A model generated the notes under the pieces. The model was not told the DNA's origin, did no database searches, and worked only from the letters and a program-made list of their open reading frames with translations. From IMG/VR virus record IMGVR_UViG_2654587509_000002: a DNA stretch of 20,421 nucleotides. One strand, given 5' to 3'. Below are positions 3,244-19,168 of the stretch, in pieces (position 1 is the stretch's first letter; every line of letters begins with the position of its first letter). Position numbers and translations under genes: made by a program. Origin of the DNA: a virus (Duplodnaviria > Heunggongvirae > Uroviricota > Caudoviricetes).

Positions 3244-3680
3244 GCAGCCCGATCTCCCCATCTCGCTTTCCACTCCAGAGCCAGTCTCGCTTCGTCTGAC
3301 CACTTAACGCCACGCTCTGTACCGAATGCCTGTATAAGCTCTAATAGCTCCGCAAATTCGCCTACACGCATCCTGCTGGTTGACTGGCCTATTACCACAA
3401 AGCCATTCCCGGCAAGGTTAGGAACAACATCCTGCTGCTTTAATGCTGCGGTAAACACACACTTCCAGCTTTCTGCATCCAGCCAGCGACCATGCCATTC
3501 AACCTGACGAGAGACGTCACCTAAGCAGGCCCATAGCTTCCTATTTTGGTCTAAGCTGCGGTTGCGTTCCTGAATGGTTACTACGATTGGTTTGGTTGGG
3601 TCTGGAAGGATTTGCTGTACTGCGTGAATAGCGTTTTGCTGATGTGCTGGAGATCGAATTTCAAAGGTTAGTTTTTTCAT
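3240..3680 (-). CDS. ninB: NinB (Orf) recombination mediator
   Basis: 146 aa from MKKLTFEIRSPAHQQNAIHAVQQILPDPTKP...; matches lambda NinB as recalled. Confidence 0.9.
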   Translation of the reverse strand: MKKLTFEIRSPAHQQNAIHAVQQILPDPTKPIVVTIQERNRSLDQNRKLWACLGDVSRQVEWHGRWLDAESWKCVFTAALKQQDVVPNLAGNGFVVIGQSTSRMRVGEFAELLELIQAFGTERGVKWSDEARLALEWKARWGDRAA

Positions 3681-3696
3681 GACTTCCCTCTCCCCC

Positions 3697-3727
3697 AAAT
3701 AAAAAGGCCTGCGATTACCAGCAGGCC
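3697..3727 (-). terminator. Rho-independent terminator at the tR2 position, between ren and ninB
   Basis: Minus-strand transcript forms stem GGCCUGC / loop / GCAGGCC (3706-3727) followed by a U-run (plus-strand A-run 3697-3705). Confidence 0.6.
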
Positions 3728-3753
3728 TGTTATTAGCTCAGTAATGTAGATGG

Positions 3754-4044
3754 TCATCTTTTAACTCCATATACCGCCAATACCCGTTTCATCGCGGCAC
3801 TCTGGCGACACTCCTTAAAAATCAGGTTCGTGCTCATCTTTCCTTCCCGTTCTTCCCTGGTAGCAAACCGGTAATACACCGTTCGCCAGACCTTACCTTC
3901 GATAACCAGAAGACCTGCCCGTGCCATTTTAGCCGCGGCCTGATTTATGCTGGTTACTGTTGCGCCTGTTAGCGCGGCAACGTCCGGCGCACAGAAGCTA
4001 TTATGCGTCCCCAGGTAATGAATAATTGCCTCTTTGCCCGTCAT
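3754..4044 (-). CDS. ren: Ren
   Basis: 96 aa MTGKEAIIHYLGTHNSFCAPDVAALTG...; length and sequence as recalled for lambda Ren; directly downstream of P. Confidence 0.85.
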   Translation of the reverse strand: MTGKEAIIHYLGTHNSFCAPDVAALTGATVTSINQAAAKMARAGLLVIEGKVWRTVYYRFATREEREGKMSTNLIFKECRQSAAMKRVLAVYGVKR

Positions 4045-4742
4045 ACACTTGCTCCTTTCAGTCCGAACTTAGCTTTAATTTCTGCGATCTTCGCCAGAGC
4101 CTGTGCACGATTTAGAGGTCTACCGCCCATAACAGGAAGTTGTTTTACTGGTTCAGGTATCGTCTCACCACGGTTAATTCGCGCTGTCATACAGGTCAGT
4201 TCATCGGCAGCCTTGCGCCGTAATTCCGCATCAGTAAGCGCATTGGCCCGCATGTTCTGATACAGGTTGGTAACCAGCCAGTAGTGCGCGTTTGATTTCC
4301 ACGGATAAGACTCCGCATCCGGATACAGGCCTCGCTTCCGGCAATACTCGTAAACCATATCAACCAGCTCGCTGACGTTTGGCAGTCCGGCGATAACGGA
4401 TGCTTCTTCCCGGCACCATGCAACAAACTGCCCGGGTGATGGCAGAAATGGTCGATTCTGCCGACGGGCTACGCGCATTCCTGCGTTAACCTGTTCCATC
4501 GTGGTGATCCCGTTTTCCCGAAAAGCCAGAACCCACTGGCGACGGATTTCGTTCACTTCGTTCTGGTCACGGTTAGCCAGGCTCGCCGGGAAAGTTGCCA
4601 GTAACTGGCTGAACACACCGTTGATGATCTGCGCTACCTGCTGTACCTGCGGCTTTTCGTCGTACTGTTCCGGCATGTTGTTGGCGATCCGACGCATCTG
4701 CTCACGGTCAAAGTTAACCATCTGTGCGGCGATGTTTTTCAT
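4041..4742 (-). CDS. P: Replication protein P (DnaB helicase loader)
   Basis: 233 aa MKNIAAQMVNFDREQMRRIANNMPEQYDEKPQ...; lambda P length; ATGA overlap with O. Confidence 0.95.
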   Translation of the reverse strand: MKNIAAQMVNFDREQMRRIANNMPEQYDEKPQVQQVAQIINGVFSQLLATFPASLANRDQNEVNEIRRQWVLAFRENGITTMEQVNAGMRVARRQNRPFLPSPGQFVAWCREEASVIAGLPNVSELVDMVYEYCRKRGLYPDAESYPWKSNAHYWLVTNLYQNMRANALTDAELRRKAADELTCMTARINRGETIPEPVKQLPVMGGRPLNRAQALAKIAEIKAKFGLKGASV

Positions 4743-5638
4743 AGATCCACCCCGTAAATCCAGTCTGTGTTTGTCAGGTCGAGTTTTGGTTTGCTGGCTG
4801 TCACGACTGCCTGTTGCTTGTTACGGTTGATTTCGAGCTGGGTCCACTTGTCGCGGAGTTTGGCCGGACTAAGCACGTTACCGGACCAGAAGTTGTCCTG
4901 GCATGCCCAGCGGAACAGCACGCACATGTCGCGGTGGTTACGTCCGTCACGTTCACGCATCAGGCGGATATCGTTAGCCCACCCTGCAAAATTCGGTTTT
5001 CTGGCTGATGGCGCGATGGTCTTCACCATGTCAAACATCCACTCTGCGGCGGTCAGGTCTTCTGCTGTCCCCCACTTGCTGCCGCTCTGAATTGCAGCAT
5101 CCGGTTTCACCACAGAAAGATCGTTTTCTGGCTGGTCAGAGGATTCGCCAGAATTCTCTGACGAATAATCTTTTCTTTTTTCTTTTGTAATAGTGTCTTT
5201 TGTGTCCCTCTGTTTTGAGGGATAGCAATCCCCCAATTTGAGGGATGTTTTATCCCTCGTTTTAGGGGATTTTCCCTCGTTTTGAGGGATACACCATTCT
5301 GAGATGTTTTTATTTGGTCCAAACATGCCGCCTTGCTGCTTGATAATATTCATTCTGACGAGTTCTAACTTGGCTTCATTGCACCGTTTGACGGGTAACT
5401 TTGTAATCTCGCTAAGTTGAGAATCGGTGACTCTGTCCATTGGTTTATTCCACCCATAGGTTTTACGCAGAATGGCAAGCAGCACTTTAAACTGTCGCTT
5501 GGTCAGATCTGCGCCCGAATAAGCCTCAAGCAGCATATTTGATAGTCTGGCGTAACCATCATCGAGATCTGCCACATTACGCTCCTGTCCGGCAAAGTTA
5601 CCTCTGCCGAAGTTGAGTATTTTTGCTGTATTTGTCAT
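4739..5638 (-). CDS. O: Replication initiator O
   Basis: 299 aa MTNTAKILNFGRGNFAGQERNVADLDD...; contains the origin iterons internally, as in lambda. Confidence 0.95.
   Translation of the reverse strand: MTNTAKILNFGRGNFAGQERNVADLDDGYARLSNMLLEAYSGADLTKRQFKVLLAILRKTYGWNKPMDRVTDSQLSEITKLPVKRCNEAKLELVRMNIIKQQGGMFGPNKNISEWCIPQNEGKSPKTRDKTSLKLGDCYPSKQRDTKDTITKEKRKDYSSENSGESSDQPENDLSVVKPDAAIQSGSKWGTAEDLTAAEWMFDMVKTIAPSARKPNFAGWANDIRLMRERDGRNHRDMCVLFRWACQDNFWSGNVLSPAKLRDKWTQLEINRNKQQAVVTASKPKLDLTNTDWIYGVDL
5165..5290. repeat. Lambda-type replication origin: four 19-bp iterons plus the adjacent AT-rich tract, inside O
   Basis: Four spaced copies of tccctc-N7-gagggat between about 5206 and 5290 (for example tccctctgttttgagggat, ttccctcgttttgagggat) and the A/T tract ttttcttttttcttttgtaatag at 5166-5192. 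Confidence 0.85.
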
Positions 5639-5670
5639 AATGACTCCTGTTGATAGATCCAGTAATGACC

Positions 5671-5964
5671 TCAGAACTCCATCTGGATTTGTTCAGAACG
5701 CTCGGTTGCCGCCGGGCGTTTTTTATTGGTGAGAATCGCAGCAACTTGTCGCGCCAATCGAGCCATGTCGTCGTCAACGACCCCCCATTCAAGAACAGCA
5801 AGCAGCATTGAGAACTTTGGAATCCAGTCCCTCTTCCACCTGCTGATCTGCGACTTATCAACGCCCACAGCTTCCGCTGTCTTCTCAGTTCCAAGCATTG
5901 CGATTTTGTTAAGCAACGCACTCTCGATTCGTAGAGCCTCGTTGCGTTTGTTTGCACGAACCAT
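5671..5964 (-). CDS. cII: Transcriptional activator cII
   Basis: 97 aa MVRANKRNEALRIESALLNKIAMLGTEKTAEAVGVDKSQISRWKRDWIPKF...; internal start of the 117-aa ORF. Confidence 0.95.
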   Translation of the reverse strand: MVRANKRNEALRIESALLNKIAMLGTEKTAEAVGVDKSQISRWKRDWIPKFSMLLAVLEWGVVDDDMARLARQVAAILTNKKRPAATERSEQIQMEF

Positions 5965-6043
5965 ATGTAAGTATTTCCTTAGATAACAATTGATTGAATG
6001 TATGCAAATAAATGCATACACCATAGGTGTGGTTTAATTTGAT

Positions 6044-6075
6044 GCCCTTTTTCAGGGCTGGGATGTGTAAGAGCG
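6044..6075 (-). promoter_or_regulatory. nutR (boxA and boxB) N-utilisation site
   Basis: On the minus strand, boxA CGCTCTTAC (plus 6067-6075) precedes the boxB hairpin GCCCTGAAAAAGGGC (plus 6044-6058), between cro and cII. Confidence 0.75.
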
Positions 6076-6083
6076 GGAATATC

Positions 6084-7439
<1,356 letters not shown>

Positions 7440-7489
7440 TCCCCACCTCAATCTCGATAACCAAAAAACAAACTATTTTCCGTTTAAAA

Positions 7490-7558
7490 ACAATGGAGTT
7501 TGTTTTTCATGCCCCTTTTTTACAATATTTCTTGTTTACAACATACAATCTTTCTTGT
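7490..7558. promoter_or_regulatory. Left operator (three 434-type 14-bp sites) with the pL region
   Basis: ACAATGGAGTTTGT (7490-7503), ACAATATTTCTTGT (7522-7535) and ACAATCTTTCTTGT (7545-7558), each ACAA-N6-TTGT, with the same spacing as OR. Confidence 0.75.
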
Positions 7559-7604
7559 AATTTTAAGCCATCAGCAGGACGCACTGACCACCATTGAAGG
7601 TGAT

Positions 7605-7634
7605 GCTCTTAAAAATTAAGCCCTGAAGAAGGGC
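7605..7634 (+). promoter_or_regulatory. nutL (boxA-like and boxB)
   Basis: GCTCTTAAA (7605-7613) followed by the boxB hairpin GCCCTGAAGAAGGGC (7620-7634), upstream of N. Confidence 0.8.
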
Positions 7635-7792
7635 AGCATTCAAAGCAGAAGGCTTTGGGGTGTGTGATACGAAACGAAGCATTGGCCGGAAGTGCGAATC
7701 CGGATTAGCTGCAAATGAGCCAATCGTGGGGTGTTTTCGTTCAGGACTACGACTCACACACACCACCAAAGCTAACTGACAAGAGAATCCAG

Positions 7793-8116
7793 ATGGATGC
7801 ACAAACACGCCGCCGCGAACGTCGCGCAGAGAAACAGGCTCAATGGAAAGTAGCAAATCCCCTGTTGGTTGGGGTAAGCGCAAAACCAGTTAACCGCCCT
7901 ATTCTCTCGCTGAATCGCAAACCGAAATCACGAGTAGAAAGCGCACTGAATCCGATAGACCTTACAGTGCTGGCTGAATACCACGAACAGATTGAAAGCA
8001 ACCTGCAACGTATTGAGCGCAAGAATCAGCGCACATGGTACAGCAAGCCTGGCGAACGCGGCATAACATGCAGTGGACGCCAGAAAATTAAGGGAAAATC
8101 GATTCCTCTTACCTAG
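7793..8116 (+). CDS. N: Antitermination protein N
   Basis: 107 aa MDAQTRRRERRAEKQAQWK...; arginine-rich motif at the N-terminus; lambda N length; the ORF-track 5' extension is rejected. Confidence 0.95.
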   Translation: MDAQTRRRERRAEKQAQWKVANPLLVGVSAKPVNRPILSLNRKPKSRVESALNPIDLTVLAEYHEQIESNLQRIERKNQRTWYSKPGERGITCSGRQKIKGKSIPLT

Positions 8117-8671
8117 TTACTTAGATATTGGCCTTGGCTTTATCTCAATATTATATGGATCATAGCTGGCAACTAATTCAGTCCAGTAAATATCCTCAAT
8201 AGGGAATAATATATGCTTCCCGTTCCATCGGGAAAAAGTTTTGTTCAACACACCAAGCTCAATCAACTCACTAATGTATGGGAATTGTTTTGATGTAACC
8301 ACATACTTCCTGCCTTCATTAAGGGCTGCGCACAAAACCATAGATTGCTCTTCTGTAAGGTTTTGAATTACCGATCGCACTTTATCGTTTTGCATCTTAA
8401 TGCGTTTTCTTAGCTTAAATCGCTTATATTTGGCGCTGGCAATAGCTGATAATCGATGCACATTAATTGCTAGCGAAAATGCAAGAGCAAAGACGAAAAC
8501 ATGCCACACATGAGGAATACCGATTCTCTCATTAACATATTCAGGCCAGTTATCTGGGCTTAAAAGCAGAAGTCCAACCCAGATAACGATCATATACATG
8601 GTTCTCTCCAGAGGTTCATTACTGAACACTCGTCCGAGAATAACGAGTGGATCCATTTCTATACTCATCAA
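8117..8671 (-). CDS. sieB: Superinfection exclusion protein B (SieB)
   Basis: 184 aa MMSIEMDPLVILGRVFSNEPLERTMYMIVIWVGLLLL... with hydrophobic segments; transcribed opposite to N, as in lambda. Confidence 0.8.
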   Translation of the reverse strand: MMSIEMDPLVILGRVFSNEPLERTMYMIVIWVGLLLLSPDNWPEYVNERIGIPHVWHVFVFALAFSLAINVHRLSAIASAKYKRFKLRKRIKMQNDKVRSVIQNLTEEQSMVLCAALNEGRKYVVTSKQFPYISELIELGVLNKTFSRWNGKHILFPIEDIYWTELVASYDPYNIEIKPRPISK

Positions 8672-8795
8672 ACTGTAGGGGTTGTAATAGTTTATCCGAT
8701 TTCTCGCTGTAGGGGTACACGAGAACCACCGAGCCTGATGTGGTTAAAAGACAGGCACAATCTTTACTACCGCAATCCACTATTTAAGGTGATAT

Positions 8796-8882
8796 ATGGA
8801 AGAAGAATTTGAAGAGTTCGAAGAGCATCCGCAGGATGTAATGGAACAGTACCAGGACTATCCGTATGACTACGACTATTGA
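8796..8882 (+). CDS. Small acidic ORF (lambda orf28-like), 28 aa
   Basis: Hand translation MEEEFEEFEEHPQDVMEQYQDYPYDYDY; overlaps the ral start; below the ORF-track size cutoff. Confidence 0.5.
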   Translation: MEEEFEEFEEHPQDVMEQYQDYPYDYDY

Positions 8883-9045
8883 TAAGAATCAATGGTGTGG
8901 ACAATTCAAGCGATGCAATGGATGCAAGCTGCAATCGGAATGCATGGTTAAGCCTGAAGAAATGTTTCCTGTAATAGAAGATGGGAAATATGTCGATAAA
9001 TGGGCAATACGAACGACGGCAATGATTGCCAGAGAACTTGGTTAA
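8866..9045 (+). CDS. ral: Restriction alleviation protein Ral, apparently shortened by 7 residues
   Basis: Hand translation MTTTIDKNQWCGQFKRCNGCKLQSECMVKPEEMFPVIEDGKYVDKWAIRTTAMIARELG then TAA; the in-frame continuation QNNKAA-TGA resembles the lambda Ral C-terminus as recalled. Confidence 0.8.
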   Translation: MTTTIDKNQWCGQFKRCNGCKLQSECMVKPEEMFPVIEDGKYVDKWAIRTTAMIARELG

Positions 9046-9165
9046 CAGAACAACAAAGCTGCCTGATAGTGGCCTTTATTTTTGGCATAAATAACAGAAT
9101 AAACACTGCACTGAACCGCCCCGGGAATCCTGGAGACTAAACTCCCTGAGAAAGAGGTAAACAGG

Positions 9166-9492
9166 ATGACTAAAAATACTCGTTTTTCCCCTGAAGTCCG
9201 TCAACGGGCAGCCCGTATGGTTCTGGAAAGTCAGGGCGAATATGACTCACAATGGGCGACAATTTGTTCCATTGCTCCAAAGATTGGCTGTACGCCGGAG
9301 ACTCTGCGTGTCTGGGTTCGCCAGCATGAGCGGGATACCGGGGGCGGTGATGGAGGGCTCACCACCGCTGAACGTCAGCGTCTGAAAGAGCTGGAGCGTG
9401 AAAATCGTGAACTGCGCCGCAGTAACGATATCCTTCGCCAGGCTTCCGCTTATTTTGCGAAGGCGGAGTTCGACCGCCTCTGGAAAAAATAA
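9166..9492 (+). CDS. IS629 transposase OrfA (HTH and leucine-zipper subunit)
   Basis: 108 aa [55 protein letters not shown]...; ends in an A6 run just before orfB. Confidence 0.9.
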
Positions 9493-10379
9493 TGCCGCTG
9501 CTGGATAAGCTGCGTGAGCAGTACGGGGTCGGACCGCTATGCAGCGAACTGCATATTGCCCCGTCAACGTATTACCACTGTCAGCAACAGCGACATCATC
9601 CGGATAAACGCAGTGCCCGTGCGCAGCGCGATGACTGGCTGAAGAAAGAGATACAGCGCGTATACGATGAAAATCACAAGGTATACGGTGTGCGTAAAGT
9701 CTGGCGTCAGTTGTTACGGGAAGGAATCAGAGTGGCCAGATGCACTGTGGCACGTCTCATGGCGGTTATGGGACTTGCCGGTGTTCTCCGGGGTAAAAAG
9801 GTCCGCACTACCGTCAGCCGGAAAGCCGTTGCCGCATGCGACCGCGTAAACCGTCAGTTCGTGGCAGAACGTCCAGACCAGTTGTGGGTGGCTGATTTTA
9901 CCTGGGTAAGCACATGGCAGGGCTTCGTTTATGTGGCGTTCATCATTGATGTGTTCGCCGGATACATCGTGGGATGGCAGGTCTCATCATCCATGGAAAC
10001 AACATTCGTGCTGGATGCACTGGAGCAGGCGTTGTGGGCCCGTCGGCCGTCCGGCACAATCCATCACAGTGATAAAGGTTCTCAGTATGTATCGCTGGCC
10101 TACACGCAGCGGCTTAAGGAAGCCGGATTACTGGCATCAACAGGGAGTACTGGCGACTCGTATGACAACGCGATGGCGGAGAGCATCAATGGTCTTTACA
10201 AAGCGGAGGTAATACACCGTAAGAGCTGGAAAAACCGTGCAGAAGTGGAACTGGCCACACTCACGTGGGTGGACTGGTATAACAATCGACGATTGCTGGA
10301 AAGGCTGGGCCATACTCCCCCGGCAGAAGCAGAAAAAGCTTATTATGCTTCCATCGGAAACGATGATCTGGCAGCCTGA
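9492..10379 (+). CDS. IS629 transposase OrfB (DDE catalytic domain), normally expressed as an OrfAB fusion by -1 frameshift
   Basis: 295 aa, in the -1 frame relative to orfA and overlapping its stop; IS3-family integrase-core motifs (HSDKGSQY..., ...ESINGLYKAE). Confidence 0.9.
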   Translation: MPLLDKLREQYGVGPLCSELHIAPSTYYHCQQQRHHPDKRSARAQRDDWLKKEIQRVYDENHKVYGVRKVWRQLLREGIRVARCTVARLMAVMGLAGVLRGKKVRTTVSRKAVAACDRVNRQFVAERPDQLWVADFTWVSTWQGFVYVAFIIDVFAGYIVGWQVSSSMETTFVLDALEQALWARRPSGTIHHSDKGSQYVSLAYTQRLKEAGLLASTGSTGDSYDNAMAESINGLYKAEVIHRKSWKNRAEVELATLTWVDWYNNRRLLERLGHTPPAEAEKAYYASIGNDDLAA

Positions 10380-10421
10380 GTTCACAGATAAAACACTCTC
10401 CAGGAAACCCGGGGCGGTTCA

Positions 10422-10610
10422 CTGCGTGTGTGGGTTCGTCAGCATGAGCGGGATACCGGGAGTGGTGATGGTGGACTCACCACCGCTGAACGTCAGCGTC
10501 TGAAAGAGCTGGAACGTGAAAATCGTGAACTGCGCCGCAGTAACGATATCCTTCGCCAGGCTTCCGCTTATTTTGCGAAGGCGGAGTTCGACCGCCTCTG
10601 GAAAAAATAA
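10422..10610 (+). pseudogene. IS629 orfA remnant (C-terminal 62 codons, no native start)
   Basis: In-frame continuation of orfA codons from the truncation point; the ORF track shows it only via a GTG start at 10428. Confidence 0.8.
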
Positions 10611-11497
10611 TGCCGCTGCTGGATAAGCTGCGTGAGCAGTACGGGGTCGGACCGGTATGCAGTGAACTGCATATTGCCCCGTCAACGTATTACCACTGTC
10701 AGCAACAGCGACATCATCCTGATAAACGCAGTGCCCGTGCTCAGCGCGATGACTGGCTGAAGAGAGAGATACAGCGCGTATACGATGAAAATCATCAGGT
10801 GTACGGTGTGCGTAAAGTCTGGCGCCAGTTGTTACGCGAAGGTATCAGGGTGGCCAGATGTACAGTGGCGCGCCTCATGGCGGTTATGGGACTTGCCGGT
10901 GTTCTCCGGGGTAAAAAGGTCCGTACTACCGTCAGCCGGAAAGCCGTTTCCGCAGGCGACCGCGTAAACCGTCAGTTCGTGGCAGAACGTCCTGACCAGC
11001 TGTGGGTGGCTGATTTTACTTACGTCAGCACATGGCAGGGCTTCGTCTATGTGGCGTTCATCATTGATGTGTTTGCCGGATGTATCGTGGGGTGGCGAGT
11101 CTCATCGTCTATGGAAACGACATTCGTGCTGGATGCACTGGAGCAGGCGTTGTGGGCCCGTCGGCCGTCCGGCACAGTCCATCACAGTGATAAAGGTTCT
11201 CAGTATGTATCACTGGCCTATACGGAGCGACTAAAAGAAGCAAAACTGCTGGCATCAACAGGGAGTACAGGTGACTCGTATGACAACGCGATGGCGGAGA
11301 GCATCAATGGTCTTTACAAAGCGGAGGTAATACACCGTAAGAGCTGGAAAAACCGTGCAGAAGTGGAACTGGCCACACTCACGTGGGTGGACTGGTATAA
11401 CAATCGACGATTGCTGGGAAGGCTGGGTCATATCCCTCCGGCAGAAGCAGAAAAAGCTTATTATGCTTCCATCAGAAACGATGATCTGGCAGCCTGA
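10610..11497 (+). CDS. IS629 OrfB, second copy (intact frame; expression doubtful because orfA is truncated)
   Basis: 295 aa, about 95% identical to the first OrfB with scattered substitutions (for example K52R, W138Y, Y158C). Confidence 0.8.
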   Translation: MPLLDKLREQYGVGPVCSELHIAPSTYYHCQQQRHHPDKRSARAQRDDWLKREIQRVYDENHQVYGVRKVWRQLLREGIRVARCTVARLMAVMGLAGVLRGKKVRTTVSRKAVSAGDRVNRQFVAERPDQLWVADFTYVSTWQGFVYVAFIIDVFAGCIVGWRVSSSMETTFVLDALEQALWARRPSGTVHHSDKGSQYVSLAYTERLKEAKLLASTGSTGDSYDNAMAESINGLYKAEVIHRKSWKNRAEVELATLTWVDWYNNRRLLGRLGHIPPAEAEKAYYASIRNDDLAA

Positions 11498-11539
11498 GTT
11501 CACAGATAAAACACTCTCCAGGAAAACCGGGGCGGTTCA

Positions 11540-11953
11540 GGGCTGTATTCCAATGCCACGTTGACAGATGCTGACCCTCAGGCAATTGAAGATGCCATTA
11601 ATGACCTCGAAGACATGATGGCAGCATGGCAGGCTAAAGGTATCGAGCTTGGATATCAGTTTGCTGATACAGAAAACGGCATCATGCCGTTACCTGACGA
11701 TGATTCAGGTATCCCTGCGTGGGCAAATGATGGCGTCGCTTTGAAGCTCGCTGTGCAAGTGTGCATGGATAACGTCATTCAGCCGTCAGATGCTCTCCTT
11801 ACCGCTGCTGACAGCGCATATCAGACAATCTGCATCGCTTTAACCAAAATACCACCACTTGAGCGGCGAAATGACATGCCTCGCGGTAGTGGTAACAAAA
11901 GCGCGTTTACGTGGAATCGGTTTTACATCGAGAAAGATGATCCAAGTACGTGA
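11540..11953 (+). pseudogene. gp4: P22-like gene 4 (head completion / tail accessory protein), 5'-truncated by IS629
   Basis: Frame is open from the IS boundary (GLYSNATLTDADPQAIEDAINDLEDMMAAW...), 137 codons remaining; no start codon with a ribosome-binding site; followed by gene 10 as in P22. Confidence 0.7.
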
Positions 11954-11962
11954 GGTGAATAA

Positions 11963-12067
11963 ATGCCGATTCAGCAACTTCCGCTTATGAAAGGTGTCGG
12001 CAAAGACTTTCGAAACGCCGACTATATCGACTATCTGCCAGTGAATATGCTGGCAATTTTGATATAA
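11963..12067 (+). pseudogene. Orphaned 5' fragment of P22-like gene 10 (34 codons)
   Basis: GAGGTGA ribosome-binding site then [34 protein letters not shown]-stop; first 31 residues are homologous to the start of the intact gene 10 at 12636 ([31 protein letters not shown]). Confidence 0.7.
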
Positions 12068-12103
12068 TAAGTACATGAAAAATCGAAACTTTAAGGAGTA
12101 GAT

Positions 12104-12688
12104 ATGCTTTCTGAGAATGCTAAAGATATACCTGGATTTGAAGGTGTTTATGCCGTAACAGAAGATGGCAGGGTATATTCTCACTCACGTGTTGTTAAGG
12201 CTGCGCATGGCAGCACGCAACTCAGAAAGGGGCGCTGGTTAAAGCCTAAAATCAATCAGGGAAGGGTGCTTTATAATATCGGAGCAAAATGGACTTTTGC
12301 CCATCGAATCGTTGCAATGACATTCCTGCCAAATCCTGAAAACAAGCCTCAGGTAAATCATATTGATGGCAATCCACTCAATAATAACGTCAATAATCTT
12401 GAGTGGTGCACTCAAAGCGAAAACATCAAACATGCATACGCCACCGGATTAAAGAAACCAATCAAGTTTTTCGGAACCAAGCACCCAAAACACAAGTTGA
12501 GTGATGACGATGTTCTTGCAATCAAGTCATCAAAAGAAAGCTTGTCAGTAATTGCGGCTAAGTACGGGATATCTAAGACCTGGGCAAGTAGGCTAAAGCG
12601 TGATGCTAACTGGGTTCATATAAAGGTTGATTCCAATGGCAATACAACAACTACCACTAATGAAGGGATTGGGGAAAAGTGCGGTTAA
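12104..12688 (+). CDS. HNH homing-endonuclease-like protein (NUMOD4-like N-terminus plus HNH motif)
   Basis: 194 aa; AAGGAG ribosome-binding site; GFEGVYAVTEDGRVYS (NUMOD4-like), HRIVAMTF...VNHIDGNPLNNNVNNLEWCTQSENIKHA (HNH); AT-rich; 3' end overlaps the gene 10 start. Confidence 0.8.
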   Translation: MLSENAKDIPGFEGVYAVTEDGRVYSHSRVVKAAHGSTQLRKGRWLKPKINQGRVLYNIGAKWTFAHRIVAMTFLPNPENKPQVNHIDGNPLNNNVNNLEWCTQSENIKHAYATGLKKPIKFFGTKHPKHKLSDDDVLAIKSSKESLSVIAAKYGISKTWASRLKRDANWVHIKVDSNGNTTTTTNEGIGEKCG

Positions 12689-14054
12689 TGCTGATTATAT
12701 AGACCAACTTCCAGTCAATCTTTTAGCTACGCCCAAGGAGGTGTTGAATTCATCGGGATATCTTCGCTCATTCCCGGGCATTGCCAAACGTTCTGATGTG
12801 AACGGCGTATCGCGAGGCGTCGAGTACAACATGGCGCAGAGTGCTGTTTATCGCGTGTGTGGTGGCAAGCTGTACAAAGGAGAAAGTGAAGTTGGTGATG
12901 TTGCCGGAAGTGGTCGCGTATCAATGGCACATGGTCGGACATCACAGGCGGTAGGCGTTAATGGTCAACTGGTCGAATACCGCTATGATGGCACGGTTAA
13001 AACCGTCTCAAACTGGCCTACGGACAGCGGATTCACGCAGTATGAGTTAGGTTCGGTCCGTGACATTACGCGTTTACGTGGGCGTTATGCGTGGTCAAAA
13101 GACGGTACTGATTCATGGTTTATCACTGACCTTGAAGACGAATCGCATCCTGACCGCTACAGCGCACAATATCGGGCAGAATCGCAGCCGGACGGTATCA
13201 TCGGCATCGGAACATGGCGAGATTTCATCGTCTGCTTTGGTTCATCGACGATTGAATATTTTTCCCTGACTGGTGCAACCACCGTTGGTGCCGCTTTGTA
13301 TGTCGCACAGCCATCACTAATGGTGCAAAAAGGAATCGCCGGGACTTACTGCAAAACGCCATTCTCTGATTCATATGCGTTCATCAGCAATCCGGCAACA
13401 GGTGCGCCGTCTGTGTACATCATCGGCTCCGGTCAGGTGTCACCAATCGCCAGTGCGAGCATTGAGAAAATCCTCCGCTCCTACACTGCTGATGAACTGG
13501 CTGATGGCGTGATGGAATCGTTGCGGTTTGATGCTCATGAGTTGCTGATTATCCATCTTCCGCGTCACGTCCTCGTGTACGACGCATCTTCAAGCGCCAA
13601 TGGTCCGCAATGGTGTGTGCTTAAAACAGGCCTGTATGACGATGTGTACCGCGCTATCGACTTCATTTACGAAGGCAATCAGATAACGTGCGGCGATAAG
13701 CTGGAATCGGTGACCGGGAAATTGCAGTTCGATATCAGCAGTCAGTATGGGCTTCAACAGGAACACCTTCTGTTTACTCCGTTGTTCAAAGCGGATAACG
13801 CCAGATGCTTCGATCTGGAGGTGGAATCGTCCACTGGCGTAGCTCAGTACGCCGACCGCCTGTTCCTCTCTGCGACCACTGACGGCATAAATTACGGTCG
13901 TGAGCAGATGATTGAGCAGAATGAACCGTTCGTTTACGACAAACGCGTTTTGTGGAAGCGAGTCGGGCGCATCAGGAAAAATGTCGGCTTCAAATTGCGC
14001 GTTATCACGAAGTCACCTGTCACTCTGTCTGGCTGCCAGATAAGGATTGAGTAA
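12636..14054 (+). CDS. gp10: P22-like gene 10 tail accessory factor
   Basis: 472 aa from ATG 12636, the same length as P22 gp10; position between genes 4 and 26. Confidence 0.8.
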
Positions 14055-14755
14055 TGGCTGATTCGAATCTCAACACCCCTGTTATTGTGCAGGCGACGCG
14101 GCTCGATACATCAATCCTTCCACGCAATATATTCAGCCAGTCTTACCTGCTGTATGTCATTAATCAGGGGGCTGATGTCGGCGCAATTGCCGGGAAGGCA
14201 AATCAGGCTGGTCAGGGCGCTTACGATGCTCAGGTGAAAAACGATGAACAGGACGTCGAACTGGCTGATCACGACGCAAGAATCACCGCAAACACAAAAG
14301 CGATAAATCTACTTGAGGTCAGGTTAACAACTGCCGAAGGGAAGATAGTCGTACTGCGTAGCGATGTTGATTACTTGCTGGATGAGGTTATCGATATTCA
14401 GGCGCATCTGGTCACTGTTGACCAAAGACTGGATGACGTAGAAAACGATGTCTCTGGCATTAAGAGTGATTACGTATCGAAAACCGTAACCGAATTGCAG
14501 TCTCTTGAGTCACCGCTGGATGTAAAAACATCATATTCAGTTGATGGAATTCAGGTTGTTGGAGCAAGAAATACCGGATGGACTGCAGCCACAGGTACGC
14601 CACTTCTTGGCTCATTCAACGCTAACCAGTCATACACTGTCGGCACTACGTACACACAATCCGAAGTCGCAGCTCTCGCTACAGGTTTGCAGCAGGCGCG
14701 GCAGCGTATTCTGGCGCTTGAAACGGCACTTAGATTACATGGGCTGATTGACTGA
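14054..14755 (+). CDS. gp26: P22-like gene 26 tail needle
   Basis: 233 aa [36 protein letters not shown]... with a heptad-rich coiled core and C-terminal ...[14 protein letters not shown], as recalled for P22 gp26. Confidence 0.85.
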
Positions 14756-15210
14756 TGATTACATTCAAACCAACGCGAAACATCGACCTGATAGAAGCAG
14801 TCGGAAATCACCCTGACATTATCGCCGGGAGCAACAACGGCGATGGATACGACTACAAACCTGAATGCCGTTACTTTGAGGTGAGCGTGCACGGGCAGTT
14901 CGGCGGCATTGTTTACTATCAGGAGATTCAGCCGCTGACATTCGATTGCCACGCCATGTACCTGCCAGAGGTTCGTGGATTCAGCAAGGAAATCGGTCTG
15001 GCGTTCTGGCGATACATTCTGACTAACACCACCGTTCAGTGCGTCACATCGTTCGCTGCACGCAAATTCCGCCACGGGCAGATGTACTGCGCAATGATTG
15101 GCCTTAAGCGTGTAGGAACCATCAAGAAATACTTCAAAGGCGTGGATGACGTGACTTTTTACAGTGCTACACGCGAAGAACTAATCGAATTCCTGAATCA
15201 CGGGAGATAG
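14755..15210 (+). CDS. gp14: P22-like gene 14 protein
   Basis: 151 aa; synteny between gene 26 and gene 7; ATGA-type overlap with the gene 26 stop. Confidence 0.7.
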   Translation: MITFKPTRNIDLIEAVGNHPDIIAGSNNGDGYDYKPECRYFEVSVHGQFGGIVYYQEIQPLTFDCHAMYLPEVRGFSKEIGLAFWRYILTNTTVQCVTSFAARKFRHGQMYCAMIGLKRVGTIKKYFKGVDDVTFYSATREELIEFLNHGR

Positions 15211-15212
15211 CC

Positions 15213-15905
15213 ATGTTATATGCATTTAAGCTGGGCAGAAAACTGCGCGGCGAGGAACCTTATTGCCATGAAAAAGGCGGGAAAGGTGGCAGCTCTGATA
15301 AAAGCGCAAAGTATGCAGCAGAAGCTCAGAAGTATGCCGCAGACCTGCAAAATCAGCAGTTCAACACCATCATGAACAACCTGAAACCGTTTACTCCTCT
15401 GGCTGAGAAGTATGTCGGCAGCCTCGAGAACTTATCGTCTCTGGAGGGGCAAGGTCAGGCGCTTAACCAGTATTACAACTCTCAGCAGTATAAAGACCTT
15501 GCAGGTCAGGCTCGCTATCAGAGTCTGGCTGCAGCGGAAGCAACAGGTGGATTGGGTTCCACCGCAACCAGTAATCAGTTAGCAACAATCGCACCAACGC
15601 TTGGTCAGCAATGGCTATCTGGTCAGATGAACAACTACCAGAATCTGGCAAATGTTGGTCTTGGCGCACTGCAAGGTCAGGCAAACGCCGGGCAGACATA
15701 TGCCAACAACATGAGTCAGATTTCTCAGCAAAGTGCGGCTCTTGCAGCGGCAAATGCCAACAGACCATCAGCAATGCAATCTGCTATTGGCGGAGGTGCG
15801 TCTGGTGCTATTGCTGGGGCTGGACTTGCGAAATTAATTGGTTCATCCACTCCGTGGGGGGCTGCGATCGGCGGCGGTCTTGGTCTGCTTGGCTCGTTGT
15901 TTTAA
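15213..15905 (+). CDS. gp7: P22-like gene 7 ejection (internal virion) protein
   Basis: 230 aa MLYAFKLGRKLRGEEPYC...; Q/N/A-rich with a Gly-rich hydrophobic C-terminus; length and order as P22 gp7. Confidence 0.8.
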   Translation: MLYAFKLGRKLRGEEPYCHEKGGKGGSSDKSAKYAAEAQKYAADLQNQQFNTIMNNLKPFTPLAEKYVGSLENLSSLEGQGQALNQYYNSQQYKDLAGQARYQSLAAAEATGGLGSTATSNQLATIAPTLGQQWLSGQMNNYQNLANVGLGALQGQANAGQTYANNMSQISQQSAALAAANANRPSAMQSAIGGGASGAIAGAGLAKLIGSSTPWGAAIGGGLGLLGSLF

Positions 15906-15914
15906 GGGGTAATC

Positions 15915-17330
15915 ATGGCTACGTGGCAACATGGTATTAATTCTGGTGGTTTTCTGGCTGGCATCGGTACGCAAAATGAGAATGCGCCAAAGGCAAGCGA
16001 CATTAACGCAACGCTTGGTCTGATCCGCGAAAACAATGAGTTGGCTCGCTCAGGTGCAAATAACGTTGGTCTGACCGCGTTACGTGGTCTGGCTGGAGTT
16101 GCTGATATTTACAATCAGGAACAGCAACAGAAAGCGATTAGTGCGTTCAATAAGGTTCACGCTGATGCATGGGCTTCTGGTGATCCATCGGGACTATTTA
16201 AGTTTGCCCAGGAAAATCCAGCGTTTGTTGCACAGGCACAACAGGCGTTTTCTGGTCTTAATGATCAGCAACGCAACGATATGGGCGATTTAGCCATGAG
16301 GGCTAACGTCGCTCTTTCTCAGGGACCGGAAGCCTACAGTAAATTCATTACTGACAACAAGGACAGGTTAAATCGCGTTGGTGCTAATGCTGACTGGATG
16401 ATTCAGACAGGTATCCAGAATCCAGAGCAGCTATCACACATGCTGACTACTATGTCTCTCGGTGCGCTTGGACCAGAAAAGGCGTTTGCTGTTCAGGATA
16501 AGATGGCTGGTCGTGAAATTGACCGAGGCAGGCTGGCAGAGACAATCCGCAGCAATCAGGCTGGTGAAGCACTTCAGGCGAGAGGGCAAAACCTTTCCTA
16601 TCAGTCAGCAATGACTGGGCACAATATCGCAGCACAACGCTTGGCTCTGGATCAGCAAGAGTTCGGGTTTAAGATGCAGCAAGCGCAGGAAAAGGCTCAG
16701 CAGTTGATTAGTGAAGCACCTAAGCTGTCAGTAAACATGGAAAAAGGCATCGAGACGGCTGTAAACAATGCCACAGCATCATCAAACTCAGCCAATTCTA
16801 TGAGTGCGCTTGCTCAACAGTTCAGAGCAGAAAAACCAACGACAGGTTTGTTCGGTAACGCACAGAACATGTTCGCAAAACTTACCGGAAGCGATACGAC
16901 ATTGCGTGATTTGCGCATCCGCCAAAATGCCCTTGTTAACAGTCAGGTTCTTAAATTCCTACCTCCCGGCCCAGCAACGGATAAAGACGTTGAGATCGTT
17001 CGGCAGGGTGCGCCAACTGACATGGATAACCCTGAGACGGTCGCAAGATGGCTTGATGCAATGGCAAACCTTGAGCGACGAAACGCGCAGTTTAATGAGT
17101 TTAAAGCTGAGTGGATGAGCGCGAATGGCAATCCTGGACAATCGCGTAATGGCGGTCAGATATTGGGGTTGGATGTTAAAAAAGGTGAATCATTGGGGAG
17201 TGCCGTTAAGCGGTATATGTCATTGAATACTGACGCAGCGCCAGCACAAGATTCGACACCTTCAGGAGAACCACGGAATCAGGTTGGATCATATACCTCA
17301 AAATCAGTCATTCAATTTACGGTGGAATGA
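15915..17330 (+). CDS. gp20: P22-like gene 20 ejection protein
   Basis: 471 aa, identical in length to P22 gp20; synteny. Confidence 0.8.
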
Positions 17331-19168
17331 TGAAAGTAACTGCAAACGGTAAGACATTTACCTTCCCTGATGGTACGAGCACGGAAGATATTGGAGCCGC
17401 CATTGATGATTATTTTGCTGGTCAGGTTGTTCAGCAACAAACAGTTAATCAGGCCAATAATGCACCAGTACGTGAAGAACCATCATTGATGCAACAAGCT
17501 GGCGATTGGCTCACTGGTGGTCAAAGTGCAGGGCAAATTGCAGAACAGGCTGGTCGTGGTCTGGTAAACATACCATTTGACGTATTGCAGGGTGGCGCAA
17601 GTCTGATTAATGCAATCAGTCAGGGGCTTGGTGGGCCAAAAGTTTTGGATGATGTTTATCGTCCAGTAGACAAACCGACAGACCCATACGCACAAGCCGG
17701 TGAAACAATTGGTGGGTATTTAGTTCCAGGAGTTGGAACGGCAGGAAGCATGGCTATTGGATCGCTGGCAGAGGCCGCAAATCAGAAAGGCGATTTCGCA
17801 CAAAATGCAGCTAAAAATGCCGGAGTTAACCTTGCCGCTCAGGGTGTTCTTTCCGCAGCAGCAAAGGGAATAGGGCGTGGAATAACGGCTATAAAAGGTG
17901 ATATTGCGCCAGAAGTGGCGAAGAAAATTGCCACATCAGAATCGATGGGCGTGACACCAATGACATCTGATGTTATCCCGCCGAAAAATGCTTTCACTCG
18001 CGGCCTTACTCAGGATGCCGAGGGGGCTTTGCTCGGGACGGGCTCAAAGCGAGCAGAGCAATATGCAACGCGGAGTAAGCTGGTAAGCAATTATTTTGAC
18101 CGTTTTGGTGAGTACAACCCTGATGATGTGGTGAAATCTCTGACCACCACGTTAAGGGGGCGGAAGGATGCCGCTGGCGCTGTTATCAATGACGTCACCA
18201 ATAAAATGGGTAATGCCGCAGTTGATACCACAAATACCATGAATGCTCTGAATACAGCGATCGCAAGACAGGAACGGCTTGGGACGTCTGCCAATCAAAG
18301 CCTGCTTACATCCTTGCGTAACCTACGTGAAGAATTAGCAAACCCTGCAACTGATTTGGATGTTACGTTTGATCTCTTGCGTCAGCACAGAACAGCATTT
18401 AGATCTAATGTTCAGGGAGATGCTATGGTCTTCCCCAACCAGGCAAAAGCAGCTACCAATATGGTAGAGAATGCAATGTCAAAAGACCTTCGTAACGCAG
18501 TTGCTAAAAACCTCGGTGCATCAGACGCAGCAAAATACCTTAAAGCAAATTCCGATTATGCAAACGTTTATAATAAGGTGCTTAATAAAAACATTGCCAA
18601 CAAGCTCAACAAGGCAAGCAGTGAAGCCAGTCCTGAACTTATAAATACCGTTGTATTAAGCAGAAAACCATCTGACGTGAAACGAATCTGGAGCGCACTG
18701 GATGATAAGGGGAAAGATGCTATGCGTGCAGCTTACGTCAGCAAAATAGCGGAAAAGGCCGGGGACTCTCCAGCCAAGTTCATCACTGAAGTTAATAAGC
18801 TGAAATCTCAGTCAGGCGGTGAAATTTACAACACTATTTTTTCTGGAAAGCACATGAAAGAGCTTGATGCTCTTCATGAAGTTCTACAGCAAACAGCAAG
18901 GTCAGACACCGCAAATGTAGTAACTCAGACGGGGCAATCGCAAGCCAACAGGATAAGGACGATTGGCGCAACTGCGACCCTTGGCGTATCAATGGGGCTT
19001 GAGGCTGGTTTTGGTGCAATGATGCGCTTGTATGAGTCCAAAGCAGCAAGGAATATGCTTCTTCGTTTGGCAAACACCAAAGCAGGAACACCAGCCTATG
19101 AAAGAGCGATAAATAACGCTGCGAATGCCATCAGACCGCTGTTTGCTACTGAGGCAACACAGCAGTAA
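17327..19168 (+). CDS. gp16: P22-like gene 16 ejection protein
   Basis: 613 aa (P22 gp16 is about 609 aa); ATGA overlap with gene 20; last gene of the ejection operon. Confidence 0.8.

What the first reader, a model, noticed from the sequence alone, without database searches (positions are those of the whole stretch)
10422..11539. Tandem IS629 junction: a complete copy followed without spacer by a diverged copy lacking its first 192 bp
The second copy starts exactly at the base after the IRR of the first and corresponds to IS positions 193-1310. Its OrfB differs from the first at about 15 of 295 residues, so this is not a fresh duplication but two distinct IS629 variants. The arrangement suggests either insertion of one element next to an older one followed by an adjacent deletion, or IS-end-mediated deletion that also generated the gene 4 truncation. 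The second OrfB frame is intact but has no functional orfA upstream.
Basis: seen in the sequence. Interest (0 to 1): 0.4.

Follow-up and report, generated by a model that had tools for sequence, protein, structure and literature searches.

The report
Complete IS629 fused to truncated IS629
A complete IS629 insertion sequence is butted directly against a second IS629 of another subtype that lacks its first 192 bases; this is an ordinary by-product of transposition that here sits in a dead prophage, though the same join at base 193 recurs in unrelated plasmids and genomes.

Summary
Window 9112-10421 is a complete 1310-bp IS629. Window 10422-11539 is IS positions 193-1310, with no spacer and no gaps. 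The two differ at 63 of 1118 nt, and their OrfB proteins at 14 of 295 aa.

The second copy is not old or decayed. It is identical to full-length multi-copy IS629 in O145:H28 strains, so the two are different living subtypes.

The join has an exact IS end and no microhomology, which looks like transposase chemistry rather than assembly error. It is present in three sister draft assemblies.

The window is a whole draft contig, JHSY01000129.1. It starts inside a third, inverted IS629 that lies in the lambda-type Q gene. The 9-kb early region is inverted relative to the P22-like late genes. Undoing the inversion gives Q'|IS629|truncated IS629|'gene 4, a deletion of roughly 9 kb covering lysis, packaging and head genes.

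The sister assemblies attach the same tandem to other flanks, so the linkage through the repeats is uncertain.

The same kind of join occurs in at least ten contexts, four of them exactly at base 193, including Shigella virulence plasmids. That suggests a preferred self-target, but my survey was biased towards that position. Overall this is ordinary, with low to moderate interest.

The parts
1..59 (-). Left end (IRL side) of a third IS629 in inverted orientation; the contig starts inside it
   Evidence: Bases 1-61 are 100% complementary to 9110-9170. The IS end is at base 59.
60..302 (-). Q' : first 81 codons of a lambda-type Q antiterminator gene, cut by the IS at 1-59
   Evidence: PHROG 127, Q-like, residues 1-80 of 253. 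Lambda coordinate about 44128 lies at window base 60. Intact Q genes match bases 60-330 at 100%.
60..9111 (-). Lambda/434-like early region (Q', ninI to ninB, P, O, cII, cro on the minus strand; cI-434 type, N and ral on the plus strand; sieB on the minus strand). It is inverted relative to the late genes and bounded by two inverted IS629 left ends.
   Evidence: 98.5% identical to lambda imm434 34042-42952. PHROG assignments.
9112..10421 (+). Copy 1: complete IS629 (1310 bp), copy-1 subtype
   Evidence: NCBIfam NF033516, IS3 family, 312 bits against a cut-off of 160. It is 1 nt from full copies in other genomes (L042, L046).
9166..9492 (+). orfA of copy 1 (108 aa, HTH plus leucine zipper)
9447..9563 (+). 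ALIL -1 frameshift pseudoknot of copy 1
   Evidence: RF01497, 119 bits.
9492..10379 (+). orfB of copy 1 (295 aa, DDE/rve)
   Evidence: The exact protein is found in 68 blocks of the public collection.
9297..9303 (+). GGAGACT (IS positions 186-192), identical to IRL positions 21-27. In a target copy it ends exactly at the 192|193 break.
   Evidence: Read from the sequence. Post hoc observation.
9333..9348 (+). Internal right-end-like motif GGATACCGGGGGCGGT (IS positions 222-237), a 14/16 match to the right terminal repeat
   Evidence: None of 1000 shuffles reaches 14/16.
10421..10422 (+). Junction: last base of copy 1's right end joined to IS position 193 of copy 2
   Evidence: The identical junction is in JHSG, JHSA and IMG/VR contigs.
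10422..11539 (+). Copy 2: IS629 positions 193-1310, a different subtype. It has no left end, no promoter region and no orfA codons 1-46.
   Evidence: It is 0/1118 nt different from full-length copies in RM12581 and another genome.
10565..10681 (+). ALIL frameshift pseudoknot of copy 2
   Evidence: RF01497, 121 bits.
10610..11497 (+). orfB of copy 2 (295 aa, intact)
   Evidence: The exact protein is found in 675 blocks, with several copies in the O145:H28 RM12581 chromosome.
11540..11953 (+). 'gene 4: P22-type head-completion gene lacking its first 48 nt (16 codons)
   Evidence: PHROG 637, profile positions 26-152 of 156. 100% identical to nt 49-462 of an intact 153-aa gp4 (L018).
11963..19168 (+). 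Rest of the P22-like late operon: gp10 5' fragment, HNH gene, gp10, gp26, gp14, gp7, gp20, gp16
   Evidence: Gene calls and Pfam hits for the identical contig L055.

Best explanation
IS629 transposase joined the right end of one IS629 (copy-1 subtype) to position 193 inside a second IS629 of another subtype (copy-2 subtype) lying downstream in the same orientation. The target's first 192 bp, carrying its left end, promoter region and half of the OrfA helix-turn-helix, were lost together with the DNA between the two elements. That loss happened either in the same step or soon afterwards. A same-step loss would be a one-ended or junction-type strand transfer in cis that deletes the interval. A later loss would be recombination between the donor copy and a new nested copy.

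In this prophage the most economical history has three steps. First, one IS629 sat in Q after codon 81 and another in gene 4 after nt 48. Second, the join deleted the 3' part of Q, the lysis genes, terminase, portal, scaffold, coat and the start of gene 4, roughly 9 kb. Third, recombination between that IS629 and an inverted IS629 in the ral-ea10 spacer flipped the 9-kb early region, giving the order seen in the contig.

What remains is copy 1, which is complete and potentially active. Copy 2 cannot move on its own. Its orfB could at most be translated from read-through transcripts as a protein without a DNA-binding head.

Shown: the anatomy, the subtype identities, the exactness of the junction, its reproducibility, the gene order and the missing genes. 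Inferred: the order of events, the one-step versus two-step loss, and the inversion.
For: The junction has an exact IS end and no spacer or microhomology here, and the same holds in nine other truncated tandems elsewhere. That is the signature of strand transfer, not of homologous or end-joining repair.

Both copies are identical or nearly identical to full-length elements elsewhere, so both were recently live.

There is no 3-bp duplication around copy 1 or around the 2428-bp unit. By contrast, 18 of 30 free copies in my loci have a 3-bp duplication.

Gene order is as follows. Q', nin, P, O, cII and cro run leftwards while the late genes run rightwards. The segment is bounded by inverted IS629 left ends that are 100% identical over the 59 nt seen. 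In lambdoid phages Q, the lysis genes and the late genes are co-directional with the PR operon (established knowledge; normal order seen).

Intact relatives have about 7.7 kb between the holin gene and the start of gp4 (L024). Gene 4 begins at nt 49.

A fresh parallel exists. In the PEC148 prophage a complete copy is joined at position 193 to a copy that is 100% identical to it. There is no duplication there either, and the flanks are not contiguous in any RefSeq genome.

IS629-adjacent deletions attributed to strand transfer of one IS end to sites other than the partner end are described in the literature (Kusumoto 2011, as summarised in 10.1101/2023.06.07.543989). Deletions and dimer formation by IR-IR junctions of distant copies are documented for IS30, another copy-out-paste-in element (PMC9333248).
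Against: Two sister assemblies carry the same tandem with a different right flank, an island next to tRNA-Gly/xdh. One of them also has a different left flank. The join may therefore have arisen elsewhere and been brought here by IS-IS recombination.

The contig is a draft and passes through 2.4 kb of repeat, while it breaks at another copy of the same IS. No closed RefSeq E. coli genome carries the IS|Q', IS|gene 4 or this lineage's junction.

Copy-out-paste-in chemistry alone is not expected to resolve into a deletion without an extra step.

Plain nested insertion does occur. On pO103 plasmids the 75-nt left part is kept, with a TTT duplication. In one other case (L006) the whole complete-plus-truncated unit is flanked by a 3-bp duplication, TCC.
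Confidence: 0.5

Rival explanations
1. The join arose elsewhere as an ordinary nested insertion of a copy-1-type IS629 into a resident copy-2-type IS629. The site could be the island next to tRNA-Gly, as in the sister genomes. The left 192-195 bp were then lost by recombination between the two left-end repeats or with another copy. The module reached its present place between ral and gene 4 through later homologous recombination between IS629 copies.
For: JHSG and JHSA have the identical truncated copy followed by the island flank, and JHSA has another left flank. The complete copy in JHSA is a mosaic of the two subtypes, and JHSG has a 3-nt conversion patch (10795-10801), so IS-IS recombination is active in this lineage. 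A true nested insertion exists (L085, position 73, TTT duplication). One unit is flanked by a 3-bp duplication inside an integrase gene (L006). About 40% of free copies lack a duplication, so flank exchange is common.
Against: It needs a further copy-2-type IS629 in gene 4 to recombine with, for which there is no evidence. Nine of ten tandems lack the left part. Under pure homologous collapse, the mirror product (a short left fragment followed by a complete copy) should be at least as common. One small scan of viral contigs found none, but the sample is tiny. Copy 1's first 192 nt carry all 9 copy-1-type differences, so any crossover must lie in the first 68 nt.
Confidence: 0.25
2. The junction itself is real, but the path of this draft contig through the IS629 repeats is an assembler's choice. 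On this reading ral may not be linked to copy 1 (the apparent inversion), and/or copy 2 may not be linked to gene 4.
For: The window is the whole contig JHSY01000129.1 and starts 59 nt inside an IS629 identical to copy 1, as contigs do at unresolved repeats. Three assemblies of near-identical strains thread the same junction to different flanks. If Q' rather than ral were linked to copy 1, the phage would have the normal gene order without any inversion.
Against: Two independent assemblies (JHSY, JHSG) give the same ral-copy 1-copy 2 path. The flank differences go together with sequence differences inside the complete copy (JHSA mosaic), as real recombinants would show. I have no reads and cannot tell.
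Confidence: 0.2
3. The 2428-bp complete-plus-truncated pair is an old composite element that moves as a unit, using the left end of copy 1 and the right end of copy 2. On this reading the recurrence of the position-193 join reflects inheritance, not repeated formation.
For: The unit has one good left end and a good outer right end. In L006 the whole unit sits in an integrase gene with a TCC duplication. The position-193 join is old enough to be on the virulence plasmids of all Shigella species sampled.
Against: No duplication flanks the unit in the window (CAC, or TAC after un-inversion, against GGG), nor in L002-L005 or L084. The sequences just right of the junction belong to different subtypes in each context. 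The truncated copies are identical to local full-length copies (0/1118 here; 100% within L002 and L005). That fits recent independent events, unless gene conversion is invoked each time.
Confidence: 0.1
4. The tandem is an assembly artefact, that is an expanded or collapsed repeat.
For: Draft contig; repeats are error-prone.
Against: The copies differ at 63 sites spread over the whole length. The junction needs reads that join the right end to position 193, and the two sides share no k-mer. The same junction occurs in three assemblies. The same type of junction is present in closed plasmids and chromosomes.
Confidence: 0.02

Closest known systems
IS629 and its isoforms (IS1203, IS3411), IS3 family
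   Same: Length 1310 bp, ends TG...CA, orfA/orfB with a -1 frameshift signal, DDE transposase. The 5.6% distance between the two copies matches the 4-5% distance between the three IS629 subtypes described in O157:H7 (PMC3271280).
   Different: Nothing unusual in copy 1. Copy 2 lacks positions 1-192. I could not assign the two copies to ISfinder reference names.
IS629-adjacent deletions (Kusumoto et al. 2011, as summarised in 10.1101/2023.06.07.543989)
   Same: The deletion starts exactly at an IS629 end, and the IS is retained. It is attributed to strand transfer of one end to a site other than the partner end.
   Different: Here the far end of the deletion lies inside another IS629, at a recurrent position. 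Whether the excision enhancer IEE is present in this strain is unknown.
Tandem IS dimers and IS-circle junctions of copy-out-paste-in elements (IS911, IS2, IS30, IS21)
   Same: Two copies head to tail. The abutted ends are highly reactive and resolve by deletion or inversion in cis (PMC9333248). Resolution of a heterodimer into the downstream copy would give exactly this structure.
   Different: The defining right-end/2-4 bp/left-end junction is absent. The right end abuts position 193, and the second copy has no left end.
Nested IS-in-IS insertion
   Same: One IS629 end is joined to internal IS629 sequence. A genuine example exists on pO103 plasmids (L085).
   Different: The left part of the target and the 3-bp duplication are missing in the window.
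Insertion next to end-like sequences (IS30; IS911 without OrfA, Loot et al. 2002 and Rousseau et al. 2008: titles seen, content from my own knowledge)
   Same: Transposase-bound end-like sequences in the target attract the element. IS629 carries two end-like motifs around the recurrent site.
   Different: In those systems the insertion lies a few bp from the tip of the end-like sequence. Here it is at the inner edge of one motif and 30-45 bp from the other. No experiment exists for IS629.

Membership tests
IS3 family insertion sequence (copy 1) | 1.2-1.55 kb with imperfect terminal inverted repeats ending 5'-TG...CA-3' | tested here: met
   1310 bp, from TGAACCGCC... to ...GGCGGTTCA, with 24/30 matching between the ends.
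IS3 family insertion sequence (copy 1) | orfA and orfB overlapping in -1 phase, with a frameshift signal and a DDE (rve) transposase | tested here: met
   orfA at 9166-9492 and orfB at 9492-10379; A-run at 9483-9489; ALIL pseudoknot RF01497 at 119 bits; NF033516 at 312 bits against a cut-off of 160; Pfam HTH_Tnp_1, HTH_21 and rve on the same proteins.
IS3 family insertion sequence (copy 1) | 3-4 bp direct target duplication | tested here: not met
   The left flank is CAC and the right side is CTG (IS positions 193-195). Expected if the flanks were changed by deletion or recombination; 18 of 30 free copies have 3-bp duplications.
IS629 (isoform level) | Near-identity to the ISfinder IS629 reference | not testable with these tools
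   No ISfinder copy is available here. Indirect evidence: copy 2's exact OrfB is encoded at several places in the O145:H28 RM12581 chromosome, a lineage in which IS629 is reported as the commonest IS (PMC3893438). RefSeq labels close relatives IS629 or IS1203 family.
Autonomous IS (copy 2) | Both terminal repeats and a complete transposase gene | tested here: not met
   Positions 1-192 are absent: no left end and no orfA codons 1-46. The right end, frameshift signal and orfB are intact.
Tandem IS dimer, (IS)2 | Right end and left end abutted with a 2-4 bp spacer | tested here: not met
   GGTTCA is followed directly by position 193 (CTGCGTG), and there is no left end.
Nested IS insertion | Both halves of the target IS flank the insert, with a target duplication | tested here: not met
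   Left of copy 1 is phage DNA downstream of ral, not IS629 positions 1-195.
P22-like (Lederbergvirus-type) late operon | gp4, gp10, gp26, gp14, gp7, gp20 and gp16 in order, preceded by terminase, portal, scaffold and coat | tested here: not met
   The run from gp4' to gp16 is present. Terminase, portal, scaffold and coat are absent from the contig, whereas intact relatives have them. This is a defective remnant.

The most novel reading that the evidence does not exclude
IS629 carries a preferred self-target at positions 192|193 (the orfA codon 46|47 boundary). At this site the right end of another IS629 is joined in the same orientation, removing the resident copy's left end and DNA-binding head. 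The site is flanked by a 7-nt copy of the inner left repeat (GGAGACT, ending at 192) and by a 14/16 copy of the right terminal repeat at 222-237. Transposase or OrfA bound there may guide the incoming end. On this reading IS629 copies would systematically disable one another and delete what lies between them.
Probability: 0.3. Interest if true: 0.5.

Novelty: new member of a known kind. Interest (0 to 1): 0.25.

Why it matters
For this locus, it explains why the prophage is dead. Q is cut, and the lysis, packaging and head genes are gone. It also shows that the two IS copies are different live subtypes, not a decayed relic.

For genome scanning, it is a reminder that a draft contig threading several IS copies may not show the true linkage. 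Three sister assemblies disagree here.

More generally, suppose the base-193 join is confirmed as a real hot spot by an unbiased census and a transposition assay. It would then be the first defined target preference for IS629, whose insertion specificity is reported as unknown (PMC3271280). It would also give a simple route by which IS629 copies truncate each other and generate deletions in EHEC and Shigella genomes.

Tried and rejected
1. The exact 31-mer of the junction was absent from species-representative genomes. E. coli has one representative there, so this is uninformative.

2. A degenerate two-way pattern for both junction types gave only chance hits in unrelated MAGs in genome contigs. 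In metagenome contigs it gave one real hit, the Shigella-plasmid-type remnant, plus chance hits.

3. The search for the reciprocal junction (positions about 133-195 followed by a left end) in RefSeq E. coli was swamped. Every normal IS629 supplies both halves within 195 bp and the tool joins them.

4. An attempt at an unbiased census of junction positions 1-400 (right end plus IS positions 400-459) was swamped by an internally deleted IS629 remnant conserved in O157:H7 prophage Sp4.

5. Looking up the 136-aa gp4' product found only contigs that happen to start at 11541-11543. This is a selection artefact of partial genes at contig ends, not evidence for the IS|gene 4 junction elsewhere.

6. 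I looked for a left-end-like sequence just right of position 193 that could act as a pseudo-end. It matches only about 7 of 26 by eye, and the scan lists no good plus-strand match there. Rejected.

7. I checked for microhomology at the right end|position j junctions. There is none, or at most 1 nt, which argues against end joining.

8. NCBIfam has no element-level model that separates IS629 from IS1203.

9. Literature searches for a described IS629-in-IS629 hot spot found nothing. The IS911 targeting papers are not held.
Full report
**1. The observation**

A repeat search finds 9304-9603 repeated at 10422-10721 with a spacing of 1118 nt. It also finds the IS629 terminal repeats at 9112, 10421 and 11539. 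Reading the sequence and aligning the copies gives the following picture.
- Copy 1 is 9112-10421, 1310 bp, running from TGAACCGCCCCGGG... to ...CCCGGGGCGGTTCA.
- Copy 2 is 10422-11539 and corresponds without gaps to IS positions 193-1310.
- There are 63 substitutions in 1118 nt (94.4% identity), scattered over the whole length.
- OrfB differs at 14 of 295 residues; 35 differing codons are synonymous and 14 are not.
- There is no spacer, and no sequence is shared between the right end and the bases that precede position 193 in a complete copy. The break point is therefore unambiguous.
- The break falls exactly between orfA codons 46 and 47 (…CTPET|LRVWVRQ…), inside the recognition helix of the helix-turn-helix.
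- Both copies keep the A-run and the ALIL frameshift pseudoknot (RF01497, 119 and 121 bits) and an open orfB.
- Both OrfB proteins pass the NCBIfam IS3-family model (312 bits, cut-off 160).

**2. What the two copies are**

The truncated copy is not an old, decaying element. Over its 1118 nt it is identical (0 differences) to full-length elements found in several places in the E. coli O145:H28 RM12581 chromosome and in another genome (L007-L009). Its exact OrfB occurs in 675 blocks of the public gene collection.

Copy 1 differs by 1 nt from full-length copies in two other genomes (L042, L046). Its OrfB occurs in 68 blocks.

The 5.6% distance equals the distance between the three IS629 subtypes described in O157:H7, which are 4-5% apart. 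They are related respectively to IS1203, Shigella IS629 and O26 IS629 (PMC3271280). Mosaic elements also exist, with the left 285 nt of one type and the rest of the other (L037-L040, L050). The subtypes therefore recombine.

**3. The surroundings**

The window is a complete draft contig, JHSY01000129.1 of GCA_001266215.1 (20,421 bp, 0 mismatches).

Its first 59 nt are the left end of a third IS629 in the opposite orientation, 100% identical to copy 1. This copy is inserted after codon 81 of a lambda-type Q gene.

Window 60-9111, read on the minus strand, is 98.5% identical to lambda imm434 34042-42952. On the minus strand it carries Q', ninI to ninB, P, O, cII and cro. On the plus strand it carries a 434-type repressor, N and ral. 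sieB is on the minus strand. Copy 1 lies in the spacer after ral.

To the right of copy 2 is a P22-type late operon on the plus strand. Gene 4 lacks its first 48 nt and is 100% identical to nt 49-462 of an intact 153-aa gp4. It is followed by gp10, which carries an HNH gene inserted at its start, and then gp26, gp14, gp7, gp20 and gp16.

In lambdoid phages the Q gene, the lysis genes and the late genes follow the PR operon in the same direction (established knowledge; normal order seen). Here the early segment points the other way and is bounded by two inverted IS629 left ends. It has therefore been inverted by recombination between inverted IS629 copies, or else the assembler has threaded the repeat the wrong way.

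Undoing the inversion gives Q'(1-81)|IS629|truncated IS629|'gene 4. The missing stretch covers the rest of Q, holin, lysozyme, Rz, terminase, portal, scaffold, coat and 48 nt of gene 4. In intact relatives, holin to the start of gp4 is about 7.7 kb (L024). I estimate the gap at roughly 9 kb in all. The prophage cannot lyse, package or build heads.

**4. Is the junction real, and is the linkage real?**

The junction is real. The copies differ at 63 sites, and no k-mer is shared across the join. The identical junction is present in JHSG01000002.1, in JHSA01000001.1 and in an IMG/VR contig.

The linkage through the repeats is less secure.
- JHSG has the same early region, copy 1 and truncated copy. 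The truncated copy is then followed by an island next to tRNA-Gly/xdh instead of gene 4.
- JHSG's truncated copy differs only by a 3-nt patch (10795, 10796, 10801) that matches the copy-1 subtype. This looks like a conversion tract.
- JHSA has the same truncated copy and the same island flank, but a different left flank inside another transposase gene. Its complete copy has a left part of the other subtype.

Either IS-IS recombination has shuffled the flanks of one ancestral tandem, or the assemblers chose different paths. No closed RefSeq E. coli genome has the IS|Q' junction, the IS|gene 4 junction or this lineage's tandem. I cannot decide between the two without reads.

**5. How the join was made**

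Three features point to transposase chemistry: the complete right end, the absence of microhomology, and the absence of the target's left part and of any 3-bp duplication. The duplication was checked as CAC, or TAC after un-inversion, against CTG and GGG. By comparison, 18 of 30 free copies in my loci have 3-bp duplications.

This pattern fits strand transfer accompanied or followed by loss of the interval. It does not fit homologous recombination or end joining at this junction. Three routes give the structure.
- **(a) One-ended transfer.** The right end of the upstream copy is transferred to the same strand inside the downstream copy. This is the model proposed for IS629-adjacent deletions (summarised). 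The same review notes that an extra resolution step is needed for a copy-out element.
- **(b) Dimer resolution.** A right-end/left-end junction forms between the two copies and then attacks the downstream copy in cis. IR-IR junctions are documented for IS30 to form between distant copies and to generate deletions.
- **(c) Nested insertion then recombination.** An ordinary nested insertion is followed by recombination between the donor and the new copy.

I cannot separate these. I rate the family [quoted passage not shown] at 0.5. The version in which the join arose elsewhere and was recombined in rates 0.25. A wrong contig path rates 0.2. These are not mutually exclusive.

**6. Recurrence**

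Searching the 120-nt junction against closed E. coli genomes and against plasmids found the same architecture in unrelated contexts. The architecture is a complete copy followed directly by a 5'-truncated copy in the same orientation, with the left part missing.

| Break position | Context |
|---|---|
| 193 | pO145 of RM12581 and RM13514 |
| 193 | PEC148 prophage; the two copies are 100% identical, and the flanks are contiguous in no RefSeq genome |
| 193 | Virulence plasmids of S. flexneri, S. boydii, S. dysenteriae and S. sonnei, and two E. coli plasmids, upstream of ospD3 |
| 193 | This window's lineage |
| 195 | EC07 plasmid |
| 179 | pO157-like plasmids |
| 180 | elppa5 plasmid; here the whole unit is flanked by TCC inside an integrase gene |
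| about 203 | pCUPF12B; the two copies are 100% identical |
| 135 | Z1323CEC0004 chromosome |

In the Shigella plasmids the second copy is reduced to positions 193-238 fused to TTCA. This is a deletion between an internal right-end-like motif and the true right end. The same remnant is in a metagenome contig.

One plain nested insertion was also found, at positions 73-75. It keeps the 75-nt left part and has a TTT duplication (pO103 plasmids).

The sequences to the right of the four position-193 joins belong to different subtypes, so I take them as independent events. If eight events fell uniformly over positions 179-203, four at one position would have a probability of about 0.004.

There is a caveat. 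The query was built on position 193, so only joins near it (as a single alignment) or upstream of it (as two pieces) could be found. Positions beyond about 205 were not sampled, and my attempt at an unbiased census failed. Published work found no target preference for IS629.

Two end-like motifs lie around the site.
- GGAGACT, identical to left-repeat positions 21-27, ends exactly at position 192.
- GGATACCGGGGGCGGT at 222-237 matches the right terminal repeat at 14 of 16 positions, and none of 1000 shuffles reaches this.

Whether these motifs guide the incoming end is speculation. The geometry does not match the known insertion next to end-like sequences in IS30 or IS911.

**7. Comparison with known things**

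Copy 1 is an ordinary IS629/IS3-family element. All defining features are met except a target duplication. The pair is not a tandem dimer, because there is no right-end/left-end junction. It is not a nested insertion, because there is no left part. It is closest to IS629-adjacent deletions and to products expected from resolution of an IS-IS junction. The P22-like late operon is a remnant.

**8. Verdict**

This is a real and correctly described feature with an ordinary explanation: IS629-mediated decay of a lambda/P22 hybrid prophage involving two live subtypes.

The interpretation needs four amendments. Copy 2 is not an older copy. An inversion, or a mis-threaded contig, must be taken into account. 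The flank linkage is uncertain. The join is a recurrent type.

The only part that could interest a specialist is the possible self-target at 192|193, which rests on a biased survey. Interest 0.25.

Noticed in passing
window 1-59 and 9112-10421, enclosing 60-9111: The 9-kb lambda/434-like early region is bounded by two inverted IS629 left ends and points away from the late genes. This is either an IS-IS inversion or a mis-threaded repeat in the draft assembly.
   Followed up: partly
window 11963-12688 (34-aa ORF 11963-12067, HNH gene 12104-12688, gp10 from 12636): An HNH/NUMOD4 homing-endonuclease gene sits at the start of gp10. It is preceded by a 34-codon duplicate of the gp10 5' end ([11 protein letters not shown]... 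against [11 protein letters not shown]...). Some intact relatives have it (L017, L018) and others do not (L019-L022).
   Followed up: partly
window 10795-10801, compared with L049 (JHSG01000002.1): In a sister genome the truncated copy carries a 3-nt patch that matches the copy-1 subtype. This is a short gene-conversion tract between the adjacent copies or with another IS629.
   Followed up: partly
L082 2501-2601 and L083 2285-2609 (Shigella pWR100 and S. sonnei 53G plasmid A, upstream of ospD3); L067: There is a conserved IS629 remnant: a right end joined to positions 193-238, which then run into TTCA. It looks like a deletion between the internal motif CCGGGGGCGGT and the true right end CCGGGGCGGT. 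It is present on virulence plasmids of all four Shigella species sampled.
   Followed up: partly
L004 1247-1250 and 2561-2564; L084 546-550 and 1861-1865: In two other tandems the complete copy is flanked by direct repeats of 4 nt (GTAC) and 5 nt (CTCAC), although the left flank is not IS629 and free copies make 3-bp duplications. The chance of two such cases in ten is about 0.0007. No model I tried explains it.
   Followed up: partly
window 6963-7439 (+) and 19193-19582 (-): Two distantly related ORFs of the same unknown-function family (PHROG 2651, E 1e-58 and 3e-61) occur in the one prophage. One lies next to the repressor gene and one after gp16; such positions often hold exclusion or moron genes.
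   Followed up: no
L047 10840-12736 (E. coli Res13-Lact-PEA14-20), compared with L049 11113 onward: In the tRNA-Gly island a closed genome has a complete IS629-like copy 587 bp upstream of the point where the sister drafts' truncated copy abuts the island. This could be an independent insertion or an IS-adjacent deletion.
   Followed up: no
one search hits, e.g. NC_002695.2 1182529-1183203 (O157:H7 Sakai prophage Sp4): An internally deleted IS629 remnant, with about 675 bp between position 400 and the right end, was the top hit in all 60 listed records, which were mostly O157:H7 genomes. It swamped the junction census.
   Followed up: no
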